A model generated the notes under the pieces. That model worked only from the letters and a program-made list of their open reading frames with translations. It made no database searches and was not told the DNA's origin. The translations under genes were made by a program, and so were the position numbers. A stretch of DNA of 64,000 nt from Patescibacteria group bacterium (GTDB taxonomy: Bacteria; Patescibacteriota; Patescibacteriia; JAXHNJ01): NCBI GenBank assembly GCA_041649715.1, contig JBAZMP010000002.1, forward strand, positions 132,964-196,963, in the 5' to 3' direction. This document shows, in pieces, positions 18,307 through 62,501 of the stretch; within the stretch, counting starts at the first letter, position 1; every line of letters begins with the position of its first letter.

Positions 18307-19948
18307 TTAATGCTTTCGCCATATAGGTATTTTCCAGACGGTACCCTGATTTTCGGTAATATTCTCTGACGCCGATGCCAGAAATGACGGCGATTTTTTT
18401 ATAGCTTTTTTTACGAACAATCTTTTCCGCTTCTTGCATTAATTTATAACCGAGGCCTGAGTGTTGGACGGCAGAGCGGATTTGGGAATCCGCTCTTCTC
18501 CGGAGCGGGAGGGATTGGCCGTAGGTGTGGAGTTCGCGGATCAGGGCGGTGTCGGATAACATCGCAGACTGGAAAGTCTGCGATGTGGGGTAAGGAGGAT
18601 GTGATGACGACATCCTATTTATTCCCAGCGCAGGCTTTCTAGCCTGCGCGTCATAAATTTGTGGCAGACGCAACCTTAAAAAAGCATAAAGCGTTTTTTT
18701 ATCTTTTGATTCAAGGCTTAGAAAGATTTCCTGGCCGCCAGAAGCATAATATTGTCTTTTAACTAAGATGATATCTTTCCCTTCAATTGTTTTGCTTTTT
18801 GCTTCCCGGCAGCGGATACATTGGCATTTAACCTTTTTATCCTGTAAAAGCTGGCGCAAATTGGTGATTTTATTACCAGCGATGATGCTGTCTCCGGGAA
18901 TATCGCGGATAAGGCGGTTAATCCGGACATAAGGCGGAACAACCTTTTTGATTTTAACCAACAGCTCATTCAGGGTTTTCGGCGAATATGGTTTGAATTG
19001 GCCCTGTTTGTATGATTTGTAAAGTGGCGCGGTTCTTAAAACTACACACGGGTATATTTTAAGCATATCCGGCTGAAAGCGTTCATCGGAAAATATGGTT
19101 TTAAACATCTTTAAGTCTTTGGCGGGTGTGGAGCCGGGTAAATTCGGCATCAGGTGATAAACGATCTTAAAACCAAAATCTTTCAGGATTTTGGTGGCTT
19201 TCACTATGTGTTCAACGGTATGGCCGCGCTTTATTTTCCTTAAAACTTCCGGATAAATACTTTGGATGCCCAGTTCCAAGCGGGTGATCCCTAATTCCCG
19301 CATTTTCCAGGCTTCTTTTTCGGTGACCAAGTCCGGCCGGGTTTCCACGGACAAACCAATAATTCTGTGTCTGGCTTTTTCATTATCTTTTTGCGCTTTT
19401 GGCAAATCAGAGGCCGGCCGGCCATTTGCGGCTTCAAATAATCTTTTCACAAACCACGCTTTGTATTTTTCCGGATAAGCGGTCCAGCTGCCGCCCAGGA
19501 TAATCAGTTCAATTTTATCGGTTGGATGGCCGGTTTTATTCAGAGCCACAATCCGCATTTTCACTTGTTTATACGGATCAAATTTATTCAAAAAAGCGCG
19601 CTGGGCGGCGGGTTCGTTTTTCAGATAGCTTTTCGGCATCCCTTTTTCGCTCGGGCAATACACGCATTTTCCCGGGCAAGGAAAAGGTTTGGTTAAGACC
19701 GTTATTACGCTGACCCCGGATAAAGTCCGGATTTCTCTTCGCTTCAACAATTTCTCAATTCTCTCAATCCTCTTAATACTTCTTTTAGACACCATTTGCC
19801 GATAAACAGCCAAAAGGGTAATATTAGAGAGGAGAGGTGCCTTATATTCTTTAGAGAATTTACGTTTTAACTGAAGTAATTGAGACAGAGAGGTTGTTCT
19901 TGCTCGAACAAGTTTGTTAATGAATTTTTCTTTAATTTTTTCCTTCAT
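18296..19948 (-). CDS. elp3: Elp3-like radical-SAM / GNAT acetyltransferase (tRNA U34 cm5-modification-type enzyme)
   Basis: Radical-SAM Cys cluster CPGKCVYC, the Elp3 core, and a C-terminal GNAT (GLGYKLMQEAE). Confidence 0.75.
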   Translation of the reverse strand: MKEKIKEKFINKLVRARTTSLSQLLQLKRKFSKEYKAPLLSNITLLAVYRQMVSKRSIKRIERIEKLLKRREIRTLSGVSVITVLTKPFPCPGKCVYCPSEKGMPKSYLKNEPAAQRAFLNKFDPYKQVKMRIVALNKTGHPTDKIELIILGGSWTAYPEKYKAWFVKRLFEAANGRPASDLPKAQKDNEKARHRIIGLSVETRPDLVTEKEAWKMRELGITRLELGIQSIYPEVLRKIKRGHTVEHIVKATKILKDFGFKIVYHLMPNLPGSTPAKDLKMFKTIFSDERFQPDMLKIYPCVVLRTAPLYKSYKQGQFKPYSPKTLNELLVKIKKVVPPYVRINRLIRDIPGDSIIAGNKITNLRQLLQDKKVKCQCIRCREAKSKTIEGKDIILVKRQYYASGGQEIFLSLESKDKKTLYAFLRLRLPQIYDAQARKPALGINRMSSSHPPYPTSQTFQSAMLSDTALIRELHTYGQSLPLRRRADSQIRSAVQHSGLGYKLMQEAEKIVRKKSYKKIAVISGIGVREYYRKSGYRLENTYMAKALINH

Positions 19949-29125: not shown

Positions 29126-29147
29126 ATTATTAATTGGTAATTATAAT

Positions 29148-29231
29148 GGTGCCCTGGGGGAGATTTGAACTCCCATCCCGTGAGGGACACGCTCCTGAAG
29201 CGTGCGCGTATGCCAGTTCCGCCACCAGGGC
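29148..29231 (-). tRNA. tRNA-Leu (anticodon CAG), type II with a long variable arm; CCA encoded
   Basis: Manual cloverleaf fold: acceptor gccctgg/ccagggc, anticodon stem cacgc/gcgtg with loop ttCAGga, T-arm gggag-ttcaaat-ctccc. Confidence 0.85.
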
Positions 29232-46305: not shown

Positions 46306-46384
46306 TTTTAGCCAAAAATATGTTATGGTATAATGCACTTGCAGAATGGAAAAATGAAGGTGGGCAGAGCGGAGGGTTCGCATA

Positions 46385-46475
46385 TCACCGCAAAGCGGGA
46401 CCCCCCCGCAATGCGGGGTGGGTGGTCTAGTGCGCTTGCTTGTCCCGCAAAGCGGGATGCCGCTCTGCGGCAGAG
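46385..46475 (+). repeat. tRNA-Ser 5'-portion fragment (D-arm to anticodon-stem 5' side) embedded in three copies of a cccgcaa(a/t)gcggg mini-hairpin plus a gccgctctgcggc hairpin
   Basis: ggtggtctagtgcgcttgcttg at 46420-46442 duplicates 46570-46591 of the intact tRNA-Ser. Confidence 0.6.
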
Positions 46476-46557
46476 AGCCGGAAAATAAGCATATGTATTC
46501 TGTCTGCATATAAAAGTTATAAAGGCGGTTTGCAATTTAATAAGTAGCGGAAAGAAC

Positions 46558-46644
46558 GGAGAGGTCGCATAGTGGTCTAGTGCGCTTGCTTGGAGAGCAA
46601 GTAGACCTTCACCGGTCTCGCGAGTTCAAATCTCGCCCTCTCCG
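46558..46644 (+). tRNA. tRNA-Ser (anticodon GGA), type II
   Basis: Acceptor ggagagg/cctctcc, anticodon stem cttgc/gcaag with loop ttGGAga, long variable arm, T-arm gcgag-ttcaaat-ctcgc. No CCA encoded. Confidence 0.85.
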
Positions 46645-46752
46645 TTCTTCCCGCTACAATCTTGCCCTCTCCGCCAATTATTTTAAATAAAAAAATCGCA
46701 AAAGTCTTGCATTTTTCTGGCGGGTGTTTGTTAAGATAAATTAAGTCGCAAT

Positions 46753-50258: not shown

Positions 50259-50318
50259 GTCACCTCGAGGTATCCTTCGACGCGGCTCAGGGCTCAGCCT
50301 GACAATATGGACTAAGCC
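50259..50318. repeat. Half-copy (right arm) of the MITE-like inverted-repeat element
   Basis: Matches the right arms of the copies at 50808, 51904 and 52559. Confidence 0.5.
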
Positions 50319-50913: not shown

Positions 50914-51027
50914 CCTTTTGAGCCCGTGGTTTGGGGGGCGACGGAGATATCAAGATATTGTCCGCCCAAGGCGGATCCGCCTCTGGCGGAAGATGTCGAG
51001 AACTAGTTAAGTAAAAGGCTTACATTT

Positions 51028-51903: not shown

Positions 51904-52028
51904 CTGTCACCCTGAGGTGCGGAGCCTCGAAGGGTGACCCTTTAATAAGCTTCCGCTGTCTATACTTCGACACCTTCGCCCTTCGATGCCACTCAGGGCT
52001 CGGGCTCAGTATGACAGCGGACTAAGGA
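51904..52028. repeat. MITE-like element copy B
   Basis: Same arms as copy A. Confidence 0.6.
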
Positions 52029-52558: not shown

Positions 52559-52665
52559 TTGTCACCCTGAGGTGCGGAGCCTCGAAGGGTGACGCTTTGA
52601 TAAATACTACTGCCATACTTCGAGGCACTTCGCTTTCGCTCGTGCACCTCAGTATGACAGTATGG
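52559..52665. repeat. MITE-like element copy C
   Basis: Same arms as copies A and B. Confidence 0.6.
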
Positions 52666-53875: not shown

Positions 53876-55681
53876 ATGCCAGATTCGCAAGTAGACGAAA
53901 TAAAACAGCGTCTTAATATCGCCGAAGTTATTGGCGAATACATCAAGTTGACGCCGGCGGGGACGAATTTTAAGGCGAGGTGCCCGTTTCACAACGAAAA
54001 GACGCCTTCTTTTATGGTCTCTACCGATAAGCAGATCTGGCATTGCTTCGGCTGCGACAAAGGCGGGGACATTTTCACTTTTGTCCAGGAGATCGAAGGA
54101 GTCGATTTTCCGGAAGCCCTGGGGATTTTGGCCAAAAAAGCCGGCGTAAAACTGGTCGCCCGGAATCCTCTCGTGGCCAGTCAGAAGACGAAGCTTTTGG
54201 AAATCATAAAATGGGCGGCTGCTTATTATTACAAAACATTGCTGGATTCGCCGCGGGCGGATAAGGCCCGCGCCTATCTGAAAAGCCGGGGAGTGAGCGA
54301 AGAGATGATCGATGATTTTAAATTAGGCTACGCCCTTATGGATTGGGAAAACCTGAATAATTTTTTGAAGAAGAAGGGCTATGCCGAAGAGGATATCTTT
54401 TTGGCCGGCCTGACCATCAAAAAAGAAAGAGGGGTGGGTTTTTATGACCGTTTCCGCGGCCGCCTTCTTTTTCCCATTGCCAATGTTCACGGCGAGATCA
54501 TCGGTTTTTCCGGCCGCCTTATCGAACAAGAGGAAGGCAAGGAAATGGCCAAATATATCAATACACCCAATACTTTGGTCTATAACAAAAGCCAGGTCCT
54601 TTTCGGGCTGGATAAGGCCAAGACCGCGATCAAAGAAAACAAATTGGCGATTTTGGTGGAGGGGAACATGGATGTCTTGTCTTCTTATCAGGCGGGAGTG
54701 AAAAACGTGGTCGGTTCTTCGGGTACGGCTTTGACCGCGGAACAGGTGGGCCTTTTAAAACGTTACAGCCCGAACTTCGCTTTTTGTTTTGACACGGATG
54801 CGGCCGGCCAGCAGGCGACGTTAAGGGGCCTGGAGGAGGTTTTTAAACAGGGAGTGAATATCAAGATTATTGAACTGCCTTTTGGCAAGGATCCGGACGA
54901 ATGCATCAAAAAAGACAAAGATTTATGGGTGAAAGCGGCGCAAGAAGCGAAATCAGTGATGGAATATTATTTTTCCCTGGCGGAGAAAAAATTTGATTTT
55001 ACCCAGCTGGAAGATAAAAAAGAGGCGGCCAAATTGCTTCTTTCTTTGATTTCCAAACTGACCGATTCCATCGAACAGACACATTATCTGCAGAAACTAA
55101 GCGGTTTGATCCGGGTGGAAGAGAATATTCTGCGTGACAGCCTGAACAAAATTATCAGGCAGAAGAAATATTCTTCCGAGGGCGGAACGGAAGGAGCCAA
55201 GCCCTTTGCGCCTAAGAACAAGGAGAAAAATTTAATGCTCAGCGAGATGATCCTAGGGCTGGGCCTAAAGTTCAGTCAAGAACTGCCCCACATCATAAAC
55301 AGCTTAAAAGCCGAGGCGGTCCATGATTCTCTCCACTCTCTTTACAAAAGACTGATAATTTATTATAATCAGAAGCACGAGCTAAATTTAGAGGAATTCA
55401 GGTCTGAAGCGCGGGAGGCGGATCCTGATTTTGGCCAAAAAATTGATTATTTACTTCTTTTGGCGGAAAAAGAGCTTGCCGAAGAGCCGGATGAAAAATG
55501 GCTGGAAAACGAAAGAAAAGAAATGGTTAAATCATTGAATAAAGAACATATCACCGGCCAGATCAAAGAGCTTAGTTTAAAAATAAAAGAGTCGGAAAAA
55601 ATGCAGGATAAGGCGTCATTAGTCCAATTATATCAGGAATTCAGCCAATTAACCGAAGAATTAAAAAATCTTCGCTCTTAA
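53876..55681 (+). CDS. dnaG: DNA primase DnaG
   Basis: CHC2 zinc finger (CPFHNEKTPSF...WHCFGCDKGG), RNAP core and TOPRIM. Confidence 0.9.
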   Translation: MPDSQVDEIKQRLNIAEVIGEYIKLTPAGTNFKARCPFHNEKTPSFMVSTDKQIWHCFGCDKGGDIFTFVQEIEGVDFPEALGILAKKAGVKLVARNPLVASQKTKLLEIIKWAAAYYYKTLLDSPRADKARAYLKSRGVSEEMIDDFKLGYALMDWENLNNFLKKKGYAEEDIFLAGLTIKKERGVGFYDRFRGRLLFPIANVHGEIIGFSGRLIEQEEGKEMAKYINTPNTLVYNKSQVLFGLDKAKTAIKENKLAILVEGNMDVLSSYQAGVKNVVGSSGTALTAEQVGLLKRYSPNFAFCFDTDAAGQQATLRGLEEVFKQGVNIKIIELPFGKDPDECIKKDKDLWVKAAQEAKSVMEYYFSLAEKKFDFTQLEDKKEAAKLLLSLISKLTDSIEQTHYLQKLSGLIRVEENILRDSLNKIIRQKKYSSEGGTEGAKPFAPKNKEKNLMLSEMILGLGLKFSQELPHIINSLKAEAVHDSLHSLYKRLIIYYNQKHELNLEEFRSEAREADPDFGQKIDYLLLLAEKELAEEPDEKWLENERKEMVKSLNKEHITGQIKELSLKIKESEKMQDKASLVQLYQEFSQLTEELKNLRS

Positions 55682-55722: not shown

Positions 55723-56910
55723 ATGTCCAGGCAGGCAAAAAAGAAGAATAAATCAAAAAAATCTTTTAATAAAAAAAAGGCCGCTAAACCAAGAAAGACG
55801 CCGAAAGAGAAGTATCTAAAGGCGGATTTTCCCCGGGAAAAAATCGAAGATTTGATCAATAAGGGCCGTTCGCGCGGTTTTATCACCGAGACGGAGGTTC
55901 TTTATGTTTTGCCGGATTTAGAGGATTATTTGTTGGAATACGAGCAATTGATGGATAAATTTGAAAATCTCGGCATTGTCATCGTGGAATCGCCGACCTC
56001 TATTTTAGCGACAAAAAAAGAAAAGGAAGAATACCAGGAAAAATTCGGGCACGGGAAGGACGCCCGCCGTTTTGACCTGGGCGACATTTCCGATGATTCC
56101 ATCCAGATGTATTTAAGGGAAATCGGCAAAGTCCATCTTTTAAAGACGGAAGAAGAGGTCAGTCTGGCCAAAAGGAAGGAAAAGGGGGACATGGAAGCGC
56201 AAAAAAAACTCGTGGAAGCGAATTTGCGTTTAGTGGTGTCCATCGCCAAAAAATTTACCGGCCGTTCATTGTCCCTGTTGGATTTGATTCAGGAGGGCAA
56301 TATCGGTTTATTCCGGGCCGTGGAAAAATTTGATTATCGCAAGGGCTATAAATTTTCCACTTATGCCACCTGGTGGATCAGGCAGGCGATCACCCGGGCG
56401 CTGGCCGATCAATCCCGCACCATCCGTATTCCCGTTCATATGGTGGAGACGATAAATCGTTTCCAGCAGGTGGAAAGACAATTGATTCAGGATCTGGGCC
56501 GCGAGCCCCTGCCGGAAGAGATTGCCGCCGAAATGGGCGAACCGGTGGAAAAAATCCGCCACATCATCAATATTTCCCAGGATACTGTCTCTTTGGAAAC
56601 CTCGGTGGGCGACGAAGAAGAAGATTCCACTTTGGGTGACTTTATCGAAGACGTAAAAACCATCACGCCGGACCGGGTGGCCGCTTTACAACTCCTGAAG
56701 GATCACGTAAAAGATATTATCAAGGAATTGACCCCCCGCGAGCAGAAGATATTGGAAATGCGTTTTGGATTGCTTGACGGCGTGGCCCATACCTTGGAGG
56801 AAGTAGGCAAGGAATTCGGGGTGACTCGCGAAAGGATCCGCCAGATCGAGGCCAAGGCTTTGGAGAGAATCCAGGAACATCACGGGATGAGAAAGCTGAA
56901 GGATTACTAA
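55723..56910 (+). CDS. rpoD: RNA polymerase sigma factor RpoD (sigma-70)
   Basis: Region 2 ([13 protein letters not shown]), regions 3 and 4, and the classic dnaG-rpoD linkage. Confidence 0.9.
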
Positions 56911-56936
56911 TAATTAGTACCCAAAGCTCCGCGATA

Positions 56937-57008
56937 GCTCAATGGTAGAGCAACCGGCTGTTAACCGGTAGGTTGTCGGTCCGAATCCGACTCGCGGAGC
57001 TTTGGGTA
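56937..57008 (+). tRNA. tRNA-Asn-like gene (anticodon GTT) with an atypical T-loop (UCCGAAU: C at position 55)
   Basis: Cloverleaf tccgcga / ta / gctc-aatggta-gagc / accgg-ctGTTaa-ccggt / aggtt / gtcgg-tccgaat-ccgac / tcgcgga-g. U1-A72 as in E. coli tRNA-Asn. Confidence 0.55.
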
Positions 57009-57039
57009 TTTTATTTATTTATGGTATCCCTGGTTGCCG

Positions 57040-57232
57040 CTGCAACCGGGACCCCGGCGCGAAGCGCCAGGGGGAGCAGCCGGCTGTTAACCGGTAGAGT
57101 CTGTCCTGAGTGGCAACGAAGGATTGTCGGTCCTGCGCCCGAGGCGCACCCGCCTTGGGCGGGGAATCCGACTCGCCCCGTACCAAAGCGCTTGCGCTTT
57201 GGTACGGGGCTCGCGGAGCTGGCGAGATTATT
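57040..57232 (+). repeat. Degenerate duplicate of the 56937 tRNA (D-loop to 3' acceptor), interrupted by four GC-rich hairpin insertions
   Basis: Colinear blocks atggta...ggagcagccggctgttaaccggtag...ttgtcggtcc...gaatccgactcgc...ctcgcggagct with intervening perfect hairpins. One of them (cccgtaccaaagcgcttgcgctttggtacgggg) is flanked by a duplicated ctcgc. Confidence 0.6.
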
Positions 57233-57257
57233 TTTTTGTCGTCTAGCCAGAATTAAA

Positions 57258-57282
57258 AAGCCCCTTTTAGCAAAAGGGGCCT
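57258..57282. terminator. Bidirectional hairpin (gcccctttt-agc-aaaaggggc)
   Basis: Perfect 9-bp stem just past the stop of the minus-strand gene 57296-57622. Confidence 0.5.
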
Positions 57283-57295
57283 AGTTTTTGGGGGA

Positions 57296-57622
57296 TTATG
57301 CTCCCAATATCTGATGACGAGGCAAGAGCTTTTTCAGGAGAGCAGGCGTCGCATTTTCCAGCTGGAAAGCCTGGCGGAAAGGTTTCGCAATCTTGGGGTG
57401 AAAAAGGCTCAAGACTTCTTCCAGACTGCCTTCTCTTCGGGTTCCCCCGTGCTCGGGATCTTGAGCGATGGCCACGAAAGATTTTTCTTGCCGGGTGATG
57501 GAGATGGTAAGGCAAGGTTCCAGATTCCAGAGGGTATATTCCTCGATTTCGACCACTTGGCCGTTTATTACCTGGATGGTATCCGGTGGCAGTTTTGCCC
57601 TATCGGCTAATCCTGGTTCCAT
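57296..57622 (-). CDS. Hypothetical 108-aa protein
   Basis: GAGGAGG Shine-Dalgarno 5 nt upstream of the ATG on the minus strand; a promoter and palindromic operator lie upstream. Confidence 0.5.
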   Translation of the reverse strand: MEPGLADRAKLPPDTIQVINGQVVEIEEYTLWNLEPCLTISITRQEKSFVAIAQDPEHGGTRREGSLEEVLSLFHPKIAKPFRQAFQLENATPALLKKLLPRHQILGA

Positions 57623-57692: not shown

Positions 57693-57716
57693 CATTTGTC
57701 AATATCTTGACAAATG
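57693..57716. promoter_or_regulatory. Perfect 10-4-10 palindrome CATTTGTCAA-TATC-TTGACAAATG overlapping the -35 (TTGACA) of the promoter for the 57622 gene; putative repressor operator
   Basis: Perfect dyad symmetry. Confidence 0.45.
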
Positions 57717-57746
57717 CGGCTCATTTGCTCTAAGATGTAATTACTT

Positions 57747-57803
57747 ATGAAACTTGCGAAGCAAAATCTGAATAACAATAATAACCGTCTTTTGGCCGGG
57801 TGA
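57747..57803 (+). CDS. Putative 18-aa leader peptide MKLAKQNLNNNNNRLLAG (6 Asn codons), overlapping a 9-bp stem and followed by a terminator-like hairpin
   Basis: ORF read by eye. No convincing Shine-Dalgarno, so confidence is low. Attenuator-like alternative stems at 57793-57860. Confidence 0.2.
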   Translation: MKLAKQNLNNNNNRLLAG

Positions 57804-57970
57804 GTTTCATTTAATTTGTAATTATGAGGAAACCCGGCCAAATGAGCCGGTTTTTTTGTTTATAGCCGGGCGCCGCGCTCAGGGGTAGTTGAGCTGGTAC
57901 CCCGCATAACTCACTGTGTTCGTATGCGGGGCAGGCAACGCCGGTAATATATTTTAATGATTATTCCAGC

Positions 57971-58043
57971 TCTCCTGTAGTTTAATTGGTAAAACGCTGC
58001 ACTGTTAATGCAGAGATTGGAGGTTCGAGTCCTCCTGGGAGAG
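57971..58043 (+). tRNA. tRNA-Asn (anticodon GTT), canonical
   Basis: tctcctg / ta / gttt-aattggta-aaac / g / ctgca-ctGTTaa-tgcag / agatt / ggagg-ttcgagt-cctcc / tgggaga-g. Very close to E. coli tRNA-Asn. Confidence 0.85.
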
Positions 58044-58294
58044 CTGGGATAATCATTGTAGCACTGCTTGTCCCGTAGGAACAGAAAGCGACTTACGGGA
58101 TTAATGCGGAGACCGCTGGTTCGAATCCAGCCCCCTGAGCGCGGCGCCAGTGTTTCGTCTGTCCGTCGAAACCCTGAAAGGGTGAAGGCGGAAGCCCACC
58201 TGGAGGAGCCAAATATTATTTAAATATTTGGTAGAAAAGAAAAACGCCCCACGAAGCGACAATTGTTTTGTGCTTTGTCGGGCGTGTACTGAGA

Positions 58295-58510
58295 TCAGGC
58301 TTGTGCCTTCCCCTTTCTTTTTTCTTTGTATTCGTCGAGGTTTTCGGCGAGAAATACCCACTTTTCTTCGCCTGTATTTATGATGCCCCCAGATTCTTTG
58401 CGATAAACCGCTTTACAGGCCTTGCATGCTTTTACTCTTCCGAATCCTCCGCAACCGCCGCTTTCGAGATGTTCCCAATCACTTTTTCCACACTTTGGGC
58501 AAAATTCCAT
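58295..58510 (-). CDS. Small zinc-ribbon protein (71 aa; CPKC...CKAC)
   Basis: GGGAGGG Shine-Dalgarno ahead of the ATG; two CxxC pairs. Confidence 0.5.
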   Translation of the reverse strand: MEFCPKCGKSDWEHLESGGCGGFGRVKACKACKAVYRKESGGIINTGEEKWVFLAENLDEYKEKRKGKAQA

Positions 58511-59000: not shown

Positions 59001-59462
59001 ATGGACCCAAACGCCATTAATTTTTTAAGAGATTCGCTGGCTCACCACCATAATTTGAGGAATTCTTTGGACGGCAAAGCCTCTTTTTTATTGGCCATTG
59101 CCGGGGTGGTTTTCGGCTTAAGCGTTATCAGACTGGAAAAAGTCCAGTTTGTGGTGATTGCCATTACCGCTTTTCTGACCATTCTTTTGACGGTCTTCGC
59201 CGTCTTTCTGCCTTACCGCGGGAAAATGAAAGAGAAAATCGGCCTGATGTGCTGGTGGGGTTTCGCCGGAAAAAGTTATGAAAGCTACCAGGAAGAAGTT
59301 AATCGAGTTATTAAAACTGACGAAGCGATTGCCGACGAATATAAGAAGGAGATCTGGAATCTGGCCAATTATTCTCTAAGACCGAAGTCAGTCTTGCTGA
59401 AATGGGCGAGTTTCGTTCTGACGGTCGGGCTTTTGGCCGGGTTTGTTCTGTTTTTCGTTTAA
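59001..59462 (+). CDS. Small 3-TM membrane protein (153 aa) with an N-terminal amphipathic helix; resembles 2TM/SLATT-type effector architecture
   Basis: Helices ASFLLAIAGVVFGLSVI, FVVIAITAFLTILLTVFAVFL and ASFVLTVGLLAGFVLFFV. Sits immediately upstream of the primase-fusion gene. Confidence 0.45.
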   Translation: MDPNAINFLRDSLAHHHNLRNSLDGKASFLLAIAGVVFGLSVIRLEKVQFVVIAITAFLTILLTVFAVFLPYRGKMKEKIGLMCWWGFAGKSYESYQEEVNRVIKTDEAIADEYKKEIWNLANYSLRPKSVLLKWASFVLTVGLLAGFVLFFV

Positions 59463-59606
59463 ATAATAGAATCAAAATAGCCGAATTTTAGGGCTATTTT
59501 TTTGTTTGACTAAAAATCATTCTTATGGTAAGAAACATTAACGCCCTTTGACAGTTTTATAATTTTTCAAGTCACAAAACACAGAAATCTTCAAGAAAAC
59601 AAGGAG

Positions 59607-62501
59607 GTGGAGATGGAAGAGAATCATGGTTTTAACCTGGAAACGCCCCTGGCTGTGACCCCTGATGATATTAAGAGCATTTCTGATCCATCTCCGCGTT
59701 TTCGGAGCTGGGCCTGGCAAATGTATCTTCGCCGCGAGCTTAACCTGATCGTGGAGGCGGTCATCTGGTTGGGCAAAGCGGCCAATATCATCGAAGCCCT
59801 TGCTTATCTTAACCGTCTGACGGTTGAGTATCCGGAAACCGAGCTGAAGGTCGTGGTCAAGGATCTGGAGAATATCCGAGATCCCGGCCCGAAAATGGTG
59901 AAGCTAAGAACCCTCGTGAGAGGGATCAGAGCCAAAGCGAAGGATCCGCAGCTCACGCGCGGCGCCTTGACGCATCAGGCGGTCAATGACCTTTTTAGCG
60001 GTCGGCTGATGTCTTCCGGCGGGAGAAGAACCGACAAGACTTCTTCTCAGCTTGAATTGTTCAAGCTTGAGAAAAGCCGTCAGATTCTTCTTTTTGATGA
60101 ATTCGCCGAGGAGTCAGTTCAAAGCGAAAAATCGGAAAAAATGCGTCTGAGCCGCACCCGAGTGCTTAATCGGATTCAGCATCACTGGAAAGTGATAAGG
60201 TCGGCCATCGAAAAGCAGGGTTGGCCGGCCTGGCGACGGAAAAGGCGAAACGTCAATTGTCTGGAAAAATGGCTGGCGATTCTTTTCGGCGAACACGCCG
60301 TTAAGCTTGGCGCCGAAGTAGGCTTCGGCGAACACTTTAAGGTGTTGACCGAGCTGACTTGGGCCGCCGCCGCGAGCTATTGGCTGAGAGAAAGACAAAG
60401 GCCGATGATTTTGTTCCGGGAGATAAACGTGATTGCCTCGCGTCATCACCTTGGCGGCGGACGCATTGACGCTCTTGAGGTGCGTCGCATCGGCGGAAAG
60501 TTGCCGAATCGGAGGCAAGACCGGATACTTACCGAAATGAGCCGTAACCGCTATAAATCCGTCGGCCATCTGATCATGGAGCTTGGCAAACGCTTTGACC
60601 AGCCGGTTGAAGTGACGGTCATCGACTGGAAATCTTTGGTCGGCGACGTGGTCACCGGGGATAAAGAATGGTCTTCGACGGATTTAAAAAAAGAACCCCA
60701 ATTCGCCGATCAGGAACAGATGAAGAGGTATCTGACGCTGATCCCTCTGGATTGCTACTTGGTCGGTCAAAAAGGTGAGCTTTGGCGACCCGAAGACGTG
60801 ACTCTGCGCGGGGAACTCTGGTATTTGATGCCTGACCAGGCGCCCATTGTTCATGAAGTGAGCATGGCCGTCGAGCAAATGCAGGATTATTTTTTGAATT
60901 ACGTCGTGCTTGAGTGGCCCGAAGCTTCCCGGCGGGCTTTGGCCAGGGAAGTCAATAACATTTTCCTTCGCCATCTGGTCGAGATCCATGAAAAAGGGGA
61001 AAGTCGCCCGAAGAAAGGAGCTTTCGGCAATAATCATAACGGGAATCAGGCTCTGCCACTTTTCCCGGAAGAAAAAGTAAAAGTCGTGTCCGTCCGGGAG
61101 ATAATCCGAGCGCATCGGGATAAATATCCGCTCTTTGCCGACCGCCGGCAGATTCTCCAGATTGTGGGCAAGCGCCGCAAGACAGGGACCCATAAATTGG
61201 AGATGAATTACAGCAAGCTGCTAGAGGCCATGGCAAAAGGGGAGGTAAAAACCTACAGTTGGTCGGATCCCGCCCAGCCTTTTACCGTGCAGTGCCTGAT
61301 GGACGATCACCGGGATTCTGACCCTTCCATGCGTATTTATCCCGACTGGTTACGTTTCTGGTGTTTCGGTTGCCGCACGGGCGGAAGCATTGCCATTGAA
61401 TCCGTGCCGGGCGACCTCGCCAATCGACTGGCGCCAAAATGGCAGGAAATCAGCCGCCAGCCCACTAAGCTTGACTGGTCGGTCTTGCCGGTTATTCCCG
61501 AAGAACATGACCGGATTATGCGCCGCGCCCAGCAGTTGCTGGCCTTATCTTTTTGGCCTAGTCCGGCGGTGGAATATCTGCGTCAAGAAAGGAGAGTAGA
61601 TCCTTCCCTGGCTTATGAATACGGCGCGGGTTACGGCAATAACAGCTTGATCATCGGGTTGATGAGTGAAGGTTATTGCTTAGATGATCTGATCCGCTAC
61701 GGATTCGTAAAAATCACGCCTAATTTCTGGCGGGCCAGCAGTCTGATCGGATTGTTGCAGGAAGAGTTCGGTCTTTCCGCTCAGGAAATCACGCGCGAGT
61801 ACTTATCTAAGAAGACTCAGCGGACGGAAATTGGTTATCCCTATTCAGTTCTGGCTGGCCGCGTGACTTTCCCTTTGAAGCTTGAAGGCAAACACACCAA
61901 TTTCTATGGCCGGATAATTCCGCCTACAGAGGAGATGCTGACGCACATCAAGCTTTCGATGCTGGGCGAAAAAGTCGTCCAGGGCGGCTTCAATACCGAC
62001 ATTCTTTTGTCAGACGCTAAGGAGGTGAAATTTGCCGAAGCGGTCATTGATACTCTGACCTTAGCCCAGATGGGTTATCGGAACGTGATCGCTTTGGTCG
62101 GCACCGAGAATGTCGAGATTCTCAAAGCGGCGATCCGGGCCCGCAAGAATATTGGCTTGTCCCTTGATTACGACAAGTTCGGCCGGAAGCTGACCCTGAG
62201 GACGATCAGGCGTTATTTGGCCACGGTGAATTTGGGCGGCGAAAAAGTCTGGCGGGAAATTGATCAGTATGTCCGCGAGATTGAAGAAGCGATCAAGAGG
62301 GAGGAAACGGGAGAAAAAGAAGCTCTTCATTTCGGGGAATATTTCCGCCGGCTGGGTTACCTGGGGATTGAGGATTTCACCGCTAGATTCGTGGCTGACC
62401 ATCGGGAATGTCTTGGTCGTGAATTTGATTTCAACACCTGGTGGCAGAGATTCGGTTGTCAAAACGCACCTTTATCTTGGGAGGAAGACAATAACGCGTA
62501 G
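59607..62501 (+). CDS. 964-aa fusion protein: unknown ~560-aa N-terminal region + complete DnaG-type primase (CHC2 zinc finger, RNAP core, TOPRIM)
   Basis: AAGGAGG Shine-Dalgarno. CLMDDHRDSDPSMRIYPDWLRFWCFGCRTGG parallels the dnaG zinc finger at 53876. TFPLKLEGKHTNFYGRIIPP parallels LLFPIANVHGEIIGFSGRLI. A TOPRIM-like block is AVIDTLTLAQMGYRNVIALVGTE...SLDYDKFG. Confidence 0.6.
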   Translation: MEMEENHGFNLETPLAVTPDDIKSISDPSPRFRSWAWQMYLRRELNLIVEAVIWLGKAANIIEALAYLNRLTVEYPETELKVVVKDLENIRDPGPKMVKLRTLVRGIRAKAKDPQLTRGALTHQAVNDLFSGRLMSSGGRRTDKTSSQLELFKLEKSRQILLFDEFAEESVQSEKSEKMRLSRTRVLNRIQHHWKVIRSAIEKQGWPAWRRKRRNVNCLEKWLAILFGEHAVKLGAEVGFGEHFKVLTELTWAAAASYWLRERQRPMILFREINVIASRHHLGGGRIDALEVRRIGGKLPNRRQDRILTEMSRNRYKSVGHLIMELGKRFDQPVEVTVIDWKSLVGDVVTGDKEWSSTDLKKEPQFADQEQMKRYLTLIPLDCYLVGQKGELWRPEDVTLRGELWYLMPDQAPIVHEVSMAVEQMQDYFLNYVVLEWPEASRRALAREVNNIFLRHLVEIHEKGESRPKKGAFGNNHNGNQALPLFPEEKVKVVSVREIIRAHRDKYPLFADRRQILQIVGKRRKTGTHKLEMNYSKLLEAMAKGEVKTYSWSDPAQPFTVQCLMDDHRDSDPSMRIYPDWLRFWCFGCRTGGSIAIESVPGDLANRLAPKWQEISRQPTKLDWSVLPVIPEEHDRIMRRAQQLLALSFWPSPAVEYLRQERRVDPSLAYEYGAGYGNNSLIIGLMSEGYCLDDLIRYGFVKITPNFWRASSLIGLLQEEFGLSAQEITREYLSKKTQRTEIGYPYSVLAGRVTFPLKLEGKHTNFYGRIIPPTEEMLTHIKLSMLGEKVVQGGFNTDILLSDAKEVKFAEAVIDTLTLAQMGYRNVIALVGTENVEILKAAIRARKNIGLSLDYDKFGRKLTLRTIRRYLATVNLGGEKVWREIDQYVREIEEAIKREETGEKEALHFGEYFRRLGYLGIEDFTARFVADHRECLGREFDFNTWWQRFGCQNAPLSWEEDNNA

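What the first reader, a model, noticed from the sequence alone, without database searches (positions are those of the whole stretch)
57040..57232. A tRNA-Asn-like gene followed 32 nt later by a partial duplicate of itself riddled with GC-rich hairpin insertions
Blocks of 56937-57008 (D-loop, anticodon arm with GTT, T-arm, 3' acceptor) recur in order at 57040-57232. They are split by four perfect GC-rich hairpins, for example cccgtaccaaagcgcttgcgctttggtacgggg, gcgcccgaggcgc and cccgccttgggcggg. One hairpin is flanked by a 5-bp duplication (ctcgc|hairpin|ctcgc), as if inserted like a miniature mobile element. The 'parent' tRNA itself has an unusual UCCGAAU T-loop. This is either an integration scar (att-type tRNA 3' duplication) later colonised by hairpin repeats, or a tRNA-derived structured RNA.
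Basis: seen in the sequence. Interest (0 to 1): 0.6.

Follow-up and report, generated by a model that had tools for sequence, protein, structure and literature searches.

The report
Hairpin-riddled relic copy of tRNA-Asn
Next to a working tRNA-Asn gene of an uncultured Patescibacteria (CPR) bacterium lies a broken partial copy of that gene split by short GC-rich hairpin repeats; relatives carry similar tRNA fragments, often beside a tiny GIY-YIG nuclease gene, which suggests a selfish element that invades tRNA genes.

Summary
Window 57021-57219 repeats linear positions 15-73 of tRNA-Asn1 (56928-57000) in five ordered blocks, 57 of 59 bases identical. Four insertions split the blocks and carry six hairpins. 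ARAGORN and Rfam find no tRNA or other RNA family in this copy, here called B.

B is not a one-off. In 10 of 11 related Patescibacteria genomes, the tRNA-Asn locus after rpoD holds 5' and/or 3' tRNA-Asn fragments with hairpin insertions, often nested around an intact tRNA in a covarying flanking stem. About 3% of unrelated tRNA-Asn loci show any fragment.

In relatives and other CPR lineages, a 78-99 aa GIY-YIG nuclease gene sits between a hairpin-bearing fragment and the intact tRNA (Asn, Ser, Gln, Thr). The window has no such gene.

Two hairpin types in B belong to families found elsewhere in the window's intergenic DNA. The largest hairpin is a recent insertion with a 5-bp duplication, absent from the ortholog.

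Best reading (about 0.55): B is a relic 3' part of a tRNA-Asn gene left by insertion or duplication aimed at the tRNA gene, later colonised by mobile hairpins, with its end now forming a terminator-like hairpin. A functional tRNA-like RNA is not excluded (about 0.2), because B is 92% identical to its ortholog and no difference breaks a stem.

Seen in passing: an Asn-codon leader-peptide attenuator directly upstream of a second tRNA-Asn gene.

The parts
56918..57008 (+). Intact tRNA-Asn(GUU) 'A' (tRNA 56928-57000, T-loop UCCGAAU) inside a perfect 17-bp stem. The stem is the 7-bp acceptor stem plus 10 bp of flank (TACCCAAAGC / GCTTTGGGTA). No CCA is encoded.
   Evidence: ARAGORN. Rfam tRNA 71.9 bits. 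Inverted repeat I2. The same tRNA in L084 and L082 has entirely different but still complementary flanks.
57009..57020 (+). AT-rich 12-nt spacer between A's stem and the partial copy
   Evidence: Sequence. Nearly identical in L084.
57021..57026 (+). B block 1: ATGGTA, matching D-loop positions 15-20 of A
   Evidence: Alignment
57027..57073 (+). Insertion 1 (47 nt) at the boundary of D-loop and 3' D-stem. It holds hp1 (57029-50) and hp2 (57052-73, one bulged A).
   Evidence: In L084, hp1 has a compensated U-A to C-G change plus loop changes, and hp2 is identical.
57074..57096 (+). B block 2: 3' D-stem strand plus the complete anticodon arm with GTT. One change from A (A27 to G) keeps a G.U pair.
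   Evidence: Repeat D3, 23 of 24 identical..
57097..57121 (+). Insertion 2 (25 nt) in the variable loop. It holds hp3 (57104-23), TCCTGAG-TGGCAA-CGAAGGA, a stem with tandem G.A pairs.
   Evidence: The motif CTGAGNNGCNNCGAAG occurs 4 times in the window against 0.2 expected. It is also found in L082 and L084 at sites unrelated to tRNAs.
57122..57133 (+). B block 3: variable-loop end, 5' T-stem strand and the first three T-loop bases (GATTGTCGGTCC)
   Evidence: Repeat D13, 10 of 10..
57134..57163 (+). Insertion 3 (30 nt) inside the T-loop. Two abutting 15-nt hairpins: hp4 TGCGCC-CGA-GGCGCA and hp5 CCCGCC-TTG-GGCGGG.
   Evidence: The differences from L084 lie only in the loops. A 30-nt insertion that aligns by eye at the same T-loop site, with degenerate stems, is in L210. 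The same 15-nt hairpin type occurs at 46404-72, 50961-90 and 494-508.
57164..57171 (+). B block 4: GAATCCGA, the rest of the T-loop and part of the 3' T-stem strand
   Evidence: Repeat D7..
57172..57209 (+). Insertion 4 (38 nt): CTCGC plus the 33-nt hairpin hp6 (57177-57209). The arms reach 17 bp if flanking bases are counted. CTCGC is repeated at 57210-14.
   Evidence: Inverted repeat I3. Longest perfect hairpin in the 64-kb window. Absent from the L084 ortholog, which reads CGACTCGCGGAGC. The arm GTACC-AAAGC resembles A's flank GTACCCAAAGC (read directly from the sequence).
57210..57237 (+). B block 5 (CTCGCGGAGC, the 3' acceptor strand plus discriminator, 57210-19). It is re-used as the 5' arm of a terminator-like hairpin CTCGC-GGAGCTG-GCGAG (57210-26) followed by a T-run.
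   Evidence: Repeat D4. Terminator-like site.
57258..57282 (.). Bidirectional terminator-like hairpin that closes the unit against the convergent 108-aa ORF (57296-57622, minus strand)
57869..58148 (+). Sister case 'C': a complete second-type tRNA-Asn(GUU) gene (57879-58139) in a 17-bp stem, interrupted by three insertions. These are 57900-35 (D-loop hairpin), 57944-58061 and 58067-58100 (anticodon-loop hairpin). The second insertion contains intact tRNA-Asn2 (57971-58044) in its own 20-bp stem.
   Evidence: Inverted repeats I1 and I4. Fold z-score -7.5. The joined exons are called tRNA-Asn by ARAGORN. Orthologs are uninterrupted in L082, L210 and L212. L214 has the same interrupted layout with decayed exons.

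Best explanation
B (57021-57219) is a non-functional leftover: the 3' four-fifths (linear positions 15-73) of a tRNA-Asn gene copy. I infer that it was separated from its 5' end when an intact tRNA-Asn unit (A with its flanking stem) was inserted or duplicated at the D-loop region.

In relatives the same kind of event leaves 5' and 3' fragments around a nested intact tRNA. In several genomes a 78-99 aa GIY-YIG nuclease gene lies between fragment and tRNA. The likely driver is therefore a selfish, homing-type element that targets tRNA genes and carries or duplicates a replacement copy. In this window the nuclease gene has been lost.

The fragment was then invaded by short GC-rich palindromic repeats of families that also occur elsewhere in this genome's intergenic DNA. 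hp6 is the most recent arrival and came with a 5-bp target duplication. Identity of the tRNA-derived blocks to A is most simply explained by gene conversion from the adjacent intact copy. The last block now forms a terminator-like hairpin with a T-run and may end the tRNA-Asn1 transcript.

**Shown:** the duplication, the insertions, their presence or absence in relatives, the genome-wide hairpin families, the clade-wide pattern, and the GIY-YIG adjacency in relatives.

**Inferred:** the order of events, the role of the nuclease, gene conversion, and terminator use.
For: **B is not a tRNA.**
- ARAGORN and Rfam do not call it.
- Its joined blocks alone give no tRNA. Adding A's first 14 nt gives tRNA-Asn.

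**The pattern runs through the clade.** 10 of 11 related genomes have hairpin-interrupted tRNA-Asn fragments downstream of rpoD.
- L082 and L210 have a 5' fragment, an intact tRNA in a stem, then a 3' fragment.
- L215 has a 'naked' 3' fragment of about the same extent as B, without hairpins.
- L131 has a B-like fragment whose two halves come from different alleles. Its 3' acceptor strand TCACGGAG exactly complements the 5' fragment CTCCGTGA upstream of the inserted unit.

**Control.** Only 5 of 116 unrelated tRNA-Asn loci have any fragment of 12 nt or more. Two of those five are CPR cases with a GIY-YIG gene.

**GIY-YIG genes sit at tRNA genes.**
- They lie directly upstream of intact tRNAs, with a hairpin-bearing 5' fragment upstream of the ORF, in L131 and L148 (Asn), L085 (Ser), L217 (Gln) and L218-221 (Thr). 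In L067 they flank a tRNA-Ser on both sides.
- The family has more than 1500 homologs. The source names given are mostly Patescibacteria/CPR lineages.
- The window's own tRNA-Ser has the same layout. A short remnant resembling the start of the nuclease ORF (ATGTAT) lies between its fragment and the tRNA.

**The hairpins behave as mobile repeats.**
- Family counts exceed chance.
- hp6 and a nested CUGAG hairpin are present in one close relative and absent in another.
- The 43-nt hairpin in the tRNA-Thr fragments of L218 resembles the T-loop insertion of L131's B-like fragment by eye.

**Outer interrupted genes decay.** L214's version of unit C has a mismatch in the D-, anticodon- and T-stems.
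Against: - No GIY-YIG gene or remnant lies next to A or B in the window (tblastn). The link to the nuclease rests on relatives.
- No 5' fragment lies upstream of A in the window or in L084. The rpoD stop codon is 7 nt from A's stem.
- B's core (57009-57169) is 147/160 (92%) identical to the L084 ortholog, while third codon positions of rpoD are only 62% identical. No difference disrupts a stem, and one stem change is compensated. This is more conservation than expected for junk. One other hairpin-rich intergenic region is also 90% identical. Palindromes can also correct themselves using the opposite arm as template.
- A T-loop insertion that appears shared with L210 (RpoD 83% identical) implies long persistence of the fragment in small genomes.
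- The nuclease family has not been characterised. A 78-aa protein has no obvious DNA-recognition domain.
Confidence: 0.55

Rival explanations
1. B is a functional tRNA-derived structured RNA. It would be co-transcribed with tRNA-Asn1 and keep an Asn anticodon arm and a T-arm extended by selected hairpins. Possible roles are a 3' trailer or terminator, a processing or folding scaffold for the precursor, or a decoy or regulator for a protein that binds tRNA-Asn.
For: - B's core is 92% identical to its L084 ortholog, against 62% at rpoD third codon positions.
- Every difference lies in a loop or a spacer, is compensated, or turns a pair into G.U.
- The fold z-score is -6.0.
- B ends in a terminator-like hairpin plus T-run, as do the fragments in L084 and L082.
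- 3' fragments of the form GGTYC[insertion]GAATCCGACTCGCGGAGC recur in six genomes of the clade.
Against: - Fragment content differs sharply among the closest relatives. L082 (RpoD 94% identical) has 5' and 3' fragments and no anticodon arm. L084 has an extra 66-nt AT-rich insertion and a third fragment. L214 and L085 have no 3' fragment.
- The hairpins belong to families that occur in unrelated intergenic DNA.
- hp6 is a recent insertion.
- The insertion in L210 that aligns with hp4/hp5 has lost its pairing.
- No Rfam family matches.
- Only two or three orthologs are available, so covariation cannot be tested statistically.
Confidence: 0.2
2. B is a classical att-type scar. An integrase-bearing element integrated into the 3' part of tRNA-Asn, duplicated it, and was later deleted almost completely.
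For: - A direct repeat of the tRNA's 3' portion next to the intact gene is the textbook signature (established knowledge of integration at tRNA genes).
- An accessory region follows the tRNA-Asn cluster: a PycTM protein and a 964-aa Toprim/CHC2 protein at 59001-62501.
- About 3% of unrelated tRNA-Asn loci show short 3' pieces.
Against: - Only 12 nt lie between A's stem and B.
- No integrase family is listed within 10 kb.
- The repeat starts in the D-loop, which is unusually far 5'.
- Relatives have 5' fragments upstream of the intact tRNA and fully nested arrangements, which 3'-end integration does not produce.
- The gene found inside such arrangements is a GIY-YIG nuclease, not an integrase.
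Confidence: 0.1
3. The hairpins are intervening sequences removed from RNA, like archaeal multi-intron or split tRNAs or the intervening sequences of rRNA. B, joined to a 5' piece, or unit C would then yield a working tRNA-Asn.
For: - Unit C's exons join into a perfect tRNA-Asn cloverleaf.
- The tRNA-derived blocks in fragments are nearly always identical to the intact tRNA.
- This clade does hold a true group I intron in a tRNA-Asn anticodon loop (L208, 61.6 bits).
Against: - B lacks positions 1-14 and no partner is found nearby.
- The insertions do not match group I introns.
- One insertion lies in the 3' acceptor strand and one in an anticodon stem.
- L214's outer exons have decayed.
- An intact tRNA-Asn is always present beside or inside the interrupted copy, so nothing forces splicing.
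- No bacterial machinery is known for such excision (established knowledge).
Confidence: 0.04

Closest known systems
Partial tRNA duplications (attL/attR) left by integrase-mediated insertion of phages and genomic islands into tRNA genes
   Same: An intact tRNA gene is followed by a direct repeat of its 3' part. The gene stays functional because a replacement portion is supplied.
   Different: There is no integrase and no element between the repeats. The repeat starts in the D-loop. Relatives carry 5' fragments and fully nested tRNA-in-tRNA layouts. The fragments are split by hairpin insertions.
Free-standing GIY-YIG homing endonucleases in tRNA gene clusters (phage T4 SegB; PMC2330249, PMC13096335)
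   Same: A GIY-YIG nuclease gene sits among tRNA genes. The associated tRNA region is unstable and prone to duplication.
   Different: These proteins are only 78-99 aa, a bare catalytic domain. They are chromosomal in Patescibacteria, and no close relative was found in viral contigs. They are accompanied by hairpin-interrupted fragments of the adjacent tRNA. Their activity is untested. None is present in this window.
REP/BIME-type intergenic palindromic repeats and hairpin-forming MITEs
   Same: Short GC-rich palindromes occur in many intergenic copies. They often abut or nest, and their presence varies between close relatives.
   Different: The units are very small (15-33 nt). They are enriched inside tRNA gene fragments. 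No associated transposase was identified. hp6 has a 5-bp flanking duplication.
Disrupted tRNA genes of Archaea: multiple-intron, split and tri-split tRNAs, and transposing tRNA introns (summarised in PMC10714607)
   Same: tRNA sequences are interrupted at several non-canonical positions by short structured inserts. Similar inserts appear in different tRNAs.
   Different: The organism is a bacterium. B is incomplete. There is no evidence of splicing. An intact copy always accompanies the interrupted one, and the outer exons decay in L214.

Membership tests
Canonical tRNA gene (Rfam RF00005 / ARAGORN) | Complete cloverleaf with a paired 7-bp acceptor stem, detectable by covariance model | tested here: not met
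   B is not called by ARAGORN or Rfam, even with lax filters. Its joined blocks alone are not called either. Positions 1-14 are missing.
att-type integration scar at a tRNA gene | Direct repeat of the tRNA's 3' part next to the intact gene | tested here: met
   Five ordered blocks cover positions 15-73, 57 of 59 identical.
att-type integration scar at a tRNA gene | An integrated element, or its remnant with an integrase gene, lies between the two repeats | tested here: not met
   The spacer is 12 nt. No integrase Pfam family is listed within 10 kb.
att-type integration scar at a tRNA gene | Fragments lie only on the side predicted by 3'-end integration | tested here: not met
   5' fragments lie upstream of the intact tRNA in L082, L085, L131, L210, L213, L214 and L215.
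Partial gene duplication associated with a homing endonuclease (free-standing GIY-YIG) | An endonuclease ORF adjoins the target gene and its fragment | tested here: not met
   Not met in the window: tblastn finds no GIY-YIG. It is met in the relatives L131, L148, L085, L067, L217 and L218-221. Membership of B is therefore inferred by homology of the arrangement, not shown.
Partial gene duplication associated with a homing endonuclease (free-standing GIY-YIG) | Site-specific cleavage of the allele that lacks the element, followed by copying of the element | not testable with these tools
   This needs biochemistry or crosses. Only a Pfam GIY-YIG domain and a weak match to the group I intron endonuclease family TIGR01453 (22 bits, below its cutoff) are available.
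REP/MITE-like palindromic repeat family | Multiple related copies in intergenic DNA, beyond chance | tested here: met
   The hp3 motif occurs 4 times against 0.2 expected. Perfect GC-rich hairpins with stems of 6 bp or more (the hp4/hp5 type among them) number 16 against about 3 in shuffles. hp1, hp2 and hp6 have no second copy in the window.
REP/MITE-like palindromic repeat family | Presence or absence varies between close relatives, with an intact empty site | tested here: met
   hp6 plus the CTCGC duplication is present in the window, and the empty site is present in L084. A nested CUGAG hairpin is present in L084 and absent in the window.
REP/MITE-like palindromic repeat family | A cognate transposase (for example a RAYT or IS200/IS605 TnpA) is encoded in the genome | not tested
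   Only 64 kb of the genome was available. No search for such a gene was made.
Group I intron | Match to the catalytic core model (Rfam RF00028) | tested here: not met
   B has no match. As a positive control, the insertion in L208's second tRNA-Asn scores 61.6 bits.
Archaeal-type multi-intron or split tRNA | Exons that join into a complete tRNA | tested here: not met
   Not met for B: nothing is called without A's first 14 nt. It is met for sister unit C, but the equivalent exons in L214 are degenerate.
Archaeal-type multi-intron or split tRNA | Bulge-helix-bulge motifs at the junctions and a splicing endonuclease gene | not tested
   No formal scan for the motif was run and the whole genome was not available.

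The most novel reading that the evidence does not exclude
The tRNA-Asn cluster is a working 'tRNA-within-tRNA' precursor system. On this reading the hairpin insertions and nested tRNAs are tolerated or removed at the RNA level. The long covarying flank stems would be cut (for example by RNase III) to release the inner tRNAs. Interrupted copies such as unit C, or B paired with another piece, would still contribute RNA function. That would be a bacterial counterpart of archaeal disrupted tRNA genes, created and spread by a minimal GIY-YIG/hairpin element that targets tRNA genes across the Patescibacteria.
Probability: 0.08. Interest if true: 0.9.

Novelty: new variant of a known kind. Interest (0 to 1): 0.55.

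Why it matters
On its own, B is a pseudogene-like relic. It is also a visible trace of something I could not find described in the literature searches.

In a clade of Patescibacteria, and apparently in other CPR lineages, tRNA genes are repeatedly invaded:
- They are left as hairpin-interrupted 5' and 3' fragments around a nested intact copy.
- Minimal 78-99 aa GIY-YIG nuclease genes often sit at the junction.
- The intact copy is wrapped in a 9-14 bp flanking stem (10 bp around A). Its sequence differs completely between close relatives, but the two sides always pair.

If confirmed, this would define a new kind of tRNA-targeting selfish element in very small genomes. It would explain some assembly breaks and tRNA mis-annotations in CPR genomes. 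It would also raise a concrete question about how tRNAs buried in long perfect duplexes are processed.

The neighbouring Asn-codon leader peptide upstream of a tRNA-Asn gene is a possible case of attenuation control of a tRNA gene. It deserves its own study.

Tried and rejected
1. **Insertion into tRNA loops.** I thought by eye that the hairpins insert into cloverleaf loops. Scoring 30 insertions against predicted cloverleaves gave 15 strictly and 19 leniently at loop junctions, against 47% expected. The idea is not supported. Recurrent sites exist instead: the 5' side of the D-arm, position 20/21, the T-loop at 54-56, 60/61 and 63-68.
2. **Known RNA families.** Rfam at gathering and lax thresholds gave nothing for B.
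3. **Degenerate group I intron.** No match for B. The first multi-locus scan also missed the true intron in L208 because of speed filters. A targeted scan recovered it.
4. **Viral origin.** The A/B pattern and the GIY-YIG protein gave no confirmed match in viral contigs.
5. **Metagenome DNA scan.** The anticodon-arm pattern was too general: 120 mostly unrelated tRNA-Asn genes and only one relevant locus, L131. I re-used those loci as a background control.
6. **Other copies of hp6.** None in the window.
7. **Neighbouring ORFs.** The 108-aa and 71-aa ORFs have no Pfam or NCBIfam match.
8. **Literature.** Searches on GIY-YIG with tRNA in CPR, on tRNA gene fragments, and on leader peptides upstream of tRNA genes found no description.
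9. **Neutral calibration of B's conservation.** Ambiguous. One other intergenic region is 90% identical and another 68%.
Full report
**What is there.** The window comes from a Patescibacteria (CPR) metagenome contig (ENA ERZ27247363 k141_1136829, 255 kb). Its RpoD is 94% identical to two other uncultured genomes, and names given for relatives include Kerfeldbacteria and 'Patescibacteria group'. After dnaG (53876-55681) and rpoD (55723-56910) comes tRNA-Asn(GUU) 'A' at 56928-57000 (ARAGORN; Rfam 71.9 bits). Its T-loop is UCCGAAU, so the near-universal U55 is a C. The tRNA sits inside a perfect 17-bp stem, which is the acceptor stem plus 10 bp of flank.

**The duplicate.** Twelve bases after that stem, the segment 57021-57219 ('B') repeats linear positions 15-73 of A in five ordered blocks, 57 of 59 bases identical. 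Insertions of 47, 25, 30 and 38 nt separate the blocks. The insertions hold six hairpins, and the fold is far more stable than shuffled sequence (z = -6.0). B starts at 57021, and there are six hairpins, one of them imperfect.

**B is not a tRNA or a known RNA.** ARAGORN and Rfam do not detect it, even with lax filters. The joined blocks alone give nothing. Adding A's first 14 nt gives tRNA-Asn. B lacks the 5' acceptor strand and the 5' D-stem strand.

**Orthologs.** I fetched the rpoD-linked locus from 10 further related genomes through RpoD homologs and one DNA pattern scan.
- L084 (RpoD 94%) has the identical tRNA A, but its flank stem is CCCCGCCCGC/GCGGGCGGGG instead of TACCCAAAGC/GCTTTGGGTA. 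The stem has changed sequence while keeping its pairing.
- L084 also has an ortholog of B with the same first three insertions. All differences in those three insertions lie in loops or spacers, apart from one compensated U-A to C-G pair in hp1.
- hp6 is absent from L084, which reads CGACTCGCGGAGC. In the window hp6 is flanked by a CTCGC duplication, so it is a recent insertion.
- L084 in turn has a 66-nt AT-rich insertion in the 3' T-stem strand and a further fragment with three different insertions.

**A pattern across the clade.**
- L082/L083 (94%) and L210/L211 (83%) have a 5' fragment with a D-arm hairpin. An intact tRNA-Asn in its own flank stem follows. A 3' fragment with a T-loop insertion at the same site as hp4/hp5 comes last.
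- L210's 30-nt T-loop insertion aligns with hp4/hp5 by eye, but its stems are degenerate.
- L215 has a 5' fragment, the intact tRNA, and a 'naked' 3' fragment of about the same extent as B.
- L213 has two decorated 5' fragments. L214 has one, plus a copy whose T-arm is replaced by a hairpin.
- In L131 the B-like fragment is a chimera of two alleles joined in the T-loop. Its 3' acceptor strand TCACGGAG exactly complements the acceptor strand CTCCGTGA of a decorated 5' fragment that lies upstream of the inserted unit. These look like the two ends of one older gene split by the insertion.
- In all, 10 of 11 genomes have such fragments. The eleventh (L208) has a second tRNA-Asn copy with a true group I intron in the anticodon loop (61.6 bits, E = 1.7e-15).
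- As a control, only 5 of 116 unrelated tRNA-Asn loci have any tRNA-Asn piece of 12 nt or more outside tRNA genes. Two of those five are CPR loci of the same kind.

**The same thing elsewhere in the window.**
- Unit C (57869-58148) is a complete second-type tRNA-Asn gene in a 17-bp stem, interrupted by three insertions. The middle insertion contains the intact tRNA-Asn2 (57971-58044) in its own 20-bp stem. The joined exons are called tRNA-Asn.
- The orthologous gene is uninterrupted in L082, L210 and L212. L214 has the same interrupted layout with decayed outer exons.
- tRNA-Ser(GGA) at 46557 has a hairpin-decorated 5' fragment (46371-46478) and a flank stem. Its original 3' end CCCTCTCCGCCA is displaced 20 nt downstream.

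**Link to a nuclease.**
- In L131 a 78-aa GIY-YIG ORF lies between a 5' fragment and the intact tRNA-Asn.
- tblastn over all held loci finds relatives only in L148 (Asn), L085 (Ser, two tandem fragment-nuclease units) and L067 (both sides of a tRNA-Ser). Every one is next to a tRNA.
- The family has more than 1500 homologs at E of 1e-8 or better. The source names given are mostly Patescibacteria/CPR lineages.
- Two further members, chosen for contig number, sit in the same arrangement at tRNA-Gln and tRNA-Thr.
- The 43-nt hairpin in the tRNA-Thr fragments resembles L131's T-loop insertion by eye.
- The window has no such gene. At its tRNA-Ser locus the spacer keeps a short remnant resembling the start of the ORF.

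**The hairpins.**
- hp3's motif (CUGAG-N6-CGAAG, a stem with tandem G.A pairs) occurs 4 times in the window against 0.2 expected. It also sits directly after the rubrerythrin genes.
- hp4 and hp5 are 15-nt units of the CCGCC-N3-GGCGG type. Perfect GC-rich hairpins with stems of 6 bp or more number 16 in the window against about 3 in shuffles, and include other abutting pairs.
- Presence varies between close relatives.
- hp1, hp2 and hp6 have no second copy in the window. hp6's arm resembles A's flank stem (GTACC-AAAGC vs GTACCCAAAGC).
- An apparent preference for cloverleaf loops did not survive counting.

**Interpretation.** The best-supported reading is that B is the relic 3' part of a tRNA-Asn gene copy. 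It would have been produced by insertion or duplication aimed at the tRNA gene, then colonised by mobile hairpin repeats. Its blocks would be kept like A by gene conversion, and its end is now a terminator-like hairpin. In relatives the same kind of event is tied to a minimal GIY-YIG nuclease gene.

The main reservation is conservation. B's core is 92% identical to L084's, against 62% at rpoD third codon positions, and no change breaks a stem. A functional RNA therefore remains possible. However, another hairpin-rich intergenic stretch is equally conserved, and fragment content differs sharply among the closest relatives.

A classical integrase scar is unlikely. There is no integrase, the gap is only 12 nt, and relatives carry 5' fragments. 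RNA-level removal of the inserts is unlikely but not excluded.

**In passing.** Directly upstream of unit C lie, in order:
- a promoter-like site (57707-57736);
- an 18-codon ORF (57747-57803) encoding MKLAKQNLNNNNNRLLAG;
- an intrinsic terminator-like hairpin with T-run (57834-57857).

The 5' arm of that terminator is complementary to the end of the ORF. The arrangement is conserved in four other genomes, with runs of 3-8 Asn codons, always directly before this tRNA-Asn gene. It looks like a leader-peptide attenuator controlling a tRNA-Asn gene. A search found no description of such a thing.

Noticed in passing
window 57707-57862 (+): A promoter-like site is followed by an 18-codon ORF (57747-57803, MKLAKQNLNNNNNRLLAG) and a terminator-like hairpin with T-run (57834-57857). 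The ORF's end, GGCCGGG, can pair with the terminator's 5' arm. The tRNA-Asn unit C follows immediately. The arrangement is conserved, with 3-8 consecutive Asn codons, in L082, L210, L212 and L214. It looks like a leader-peptide attenuator that senses Asn-tRNA and controls a tRNA-Asn gene.
   Followed up: partly
window 57869-58148 (+): A complete tRNA-Asn(GUU) gene is interrupted by three insertions (57900-35, 57944-58061, 58067-58100). The middle one contains an intact tRNA-Asn2 in its own 20-bp stem, a tRNA inside a tRNA. The gene is uninterrupted in L082, L210 and L212. L214 has the same interrupted layout with decayed outer exons.
   Followed up: yes
window 46371-46676 (+): The tRNA-Ser(GGA) locus shows the same pattern. 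A 5' fragment (46371-46478) has hairpin pairs in the D-loop and anticodon loop. A spacer keeps a remnant resembling the start of a GIY-YIG ORF (ATGTAT at 46493). The intact tRNA lies in a stem of about 21 bp. The original 3' end CCCTCTCCGCCA is displaced to 46665-46676. L085 has the full version with two GIY-YIG genes.
   Followed up: partly
window 56918-57008, 57956-58057, 57869-58148, 46543-46659; L082, L084, L131, L210, L212, L214: Intact tRNAs in these loci are wrapped in 9-14 bp perfect extensions of the acceptor stem, with the discriminator paired and no CCA encoded. The extension sequence differs completely between close relatives but always stays complementary. tRNA-Leu (29147-29231, minus strand) has no extension and does encode CCA. 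How such precursors are processed is unclear.
   Followed up: partly
window 56978-56988; L082 7410-7420; L084 7263-7273: tRNA-Asn1 has C instead of U at position 55 (T-loop UCCGAAU). The tRNA is identical in three genomes whose rpoD differs at about 38% of synonymous codons. More distant relatives (L208, L212, L215, L131) have the usual UUCGA.
   Followed up: partly
L208 4382-4605: A group I intron (Rfam 61.6 bits, E = 1.7e-15) lies between U35 and U36 of the anticodon loop of a second tRNA-Asn(GUU) copy in a related Patescibacteria genome. The first multi-locus scan missed it because of speed filters.
   Followed up: yes
window 50275-50290 (-), 51981-51996 (-), 52562-52594 (+), 50961-50990 (+), 494-508: Short hairpin repeat families occur across the genome's intergenic DNA. 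One is CCCUGAG-N6-CGAAGGG, with tandem G.A pairs, often directly after genes such as the rubrerythrin genes. The other is abutting 15-nt CCGCC-N3-GGCGG units. Hairpins are nested inside hairpins in L084.
   Followed up: partly
window 18473-18649 (+): A cluster of three perfect hairpins (10, 12 and 9 bp stems) lies within about 180 nt. It was not examined further.
   Followed up: no
window 57296-57622 (-), 58295-58510 (-), 59001-62501 (+): Accessory genes lie around the tRNA-Asn cluster and are absent from the closest relatives. They are a 108-aa and a 71-aa ORF with no family match, a PycTM-domain protein, and a 964-aa protein with a Toprim domain and a weak, sub-threshold match to a CHC2 zinc finger. 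This may be a defence or mobile island.
   Followed up: no
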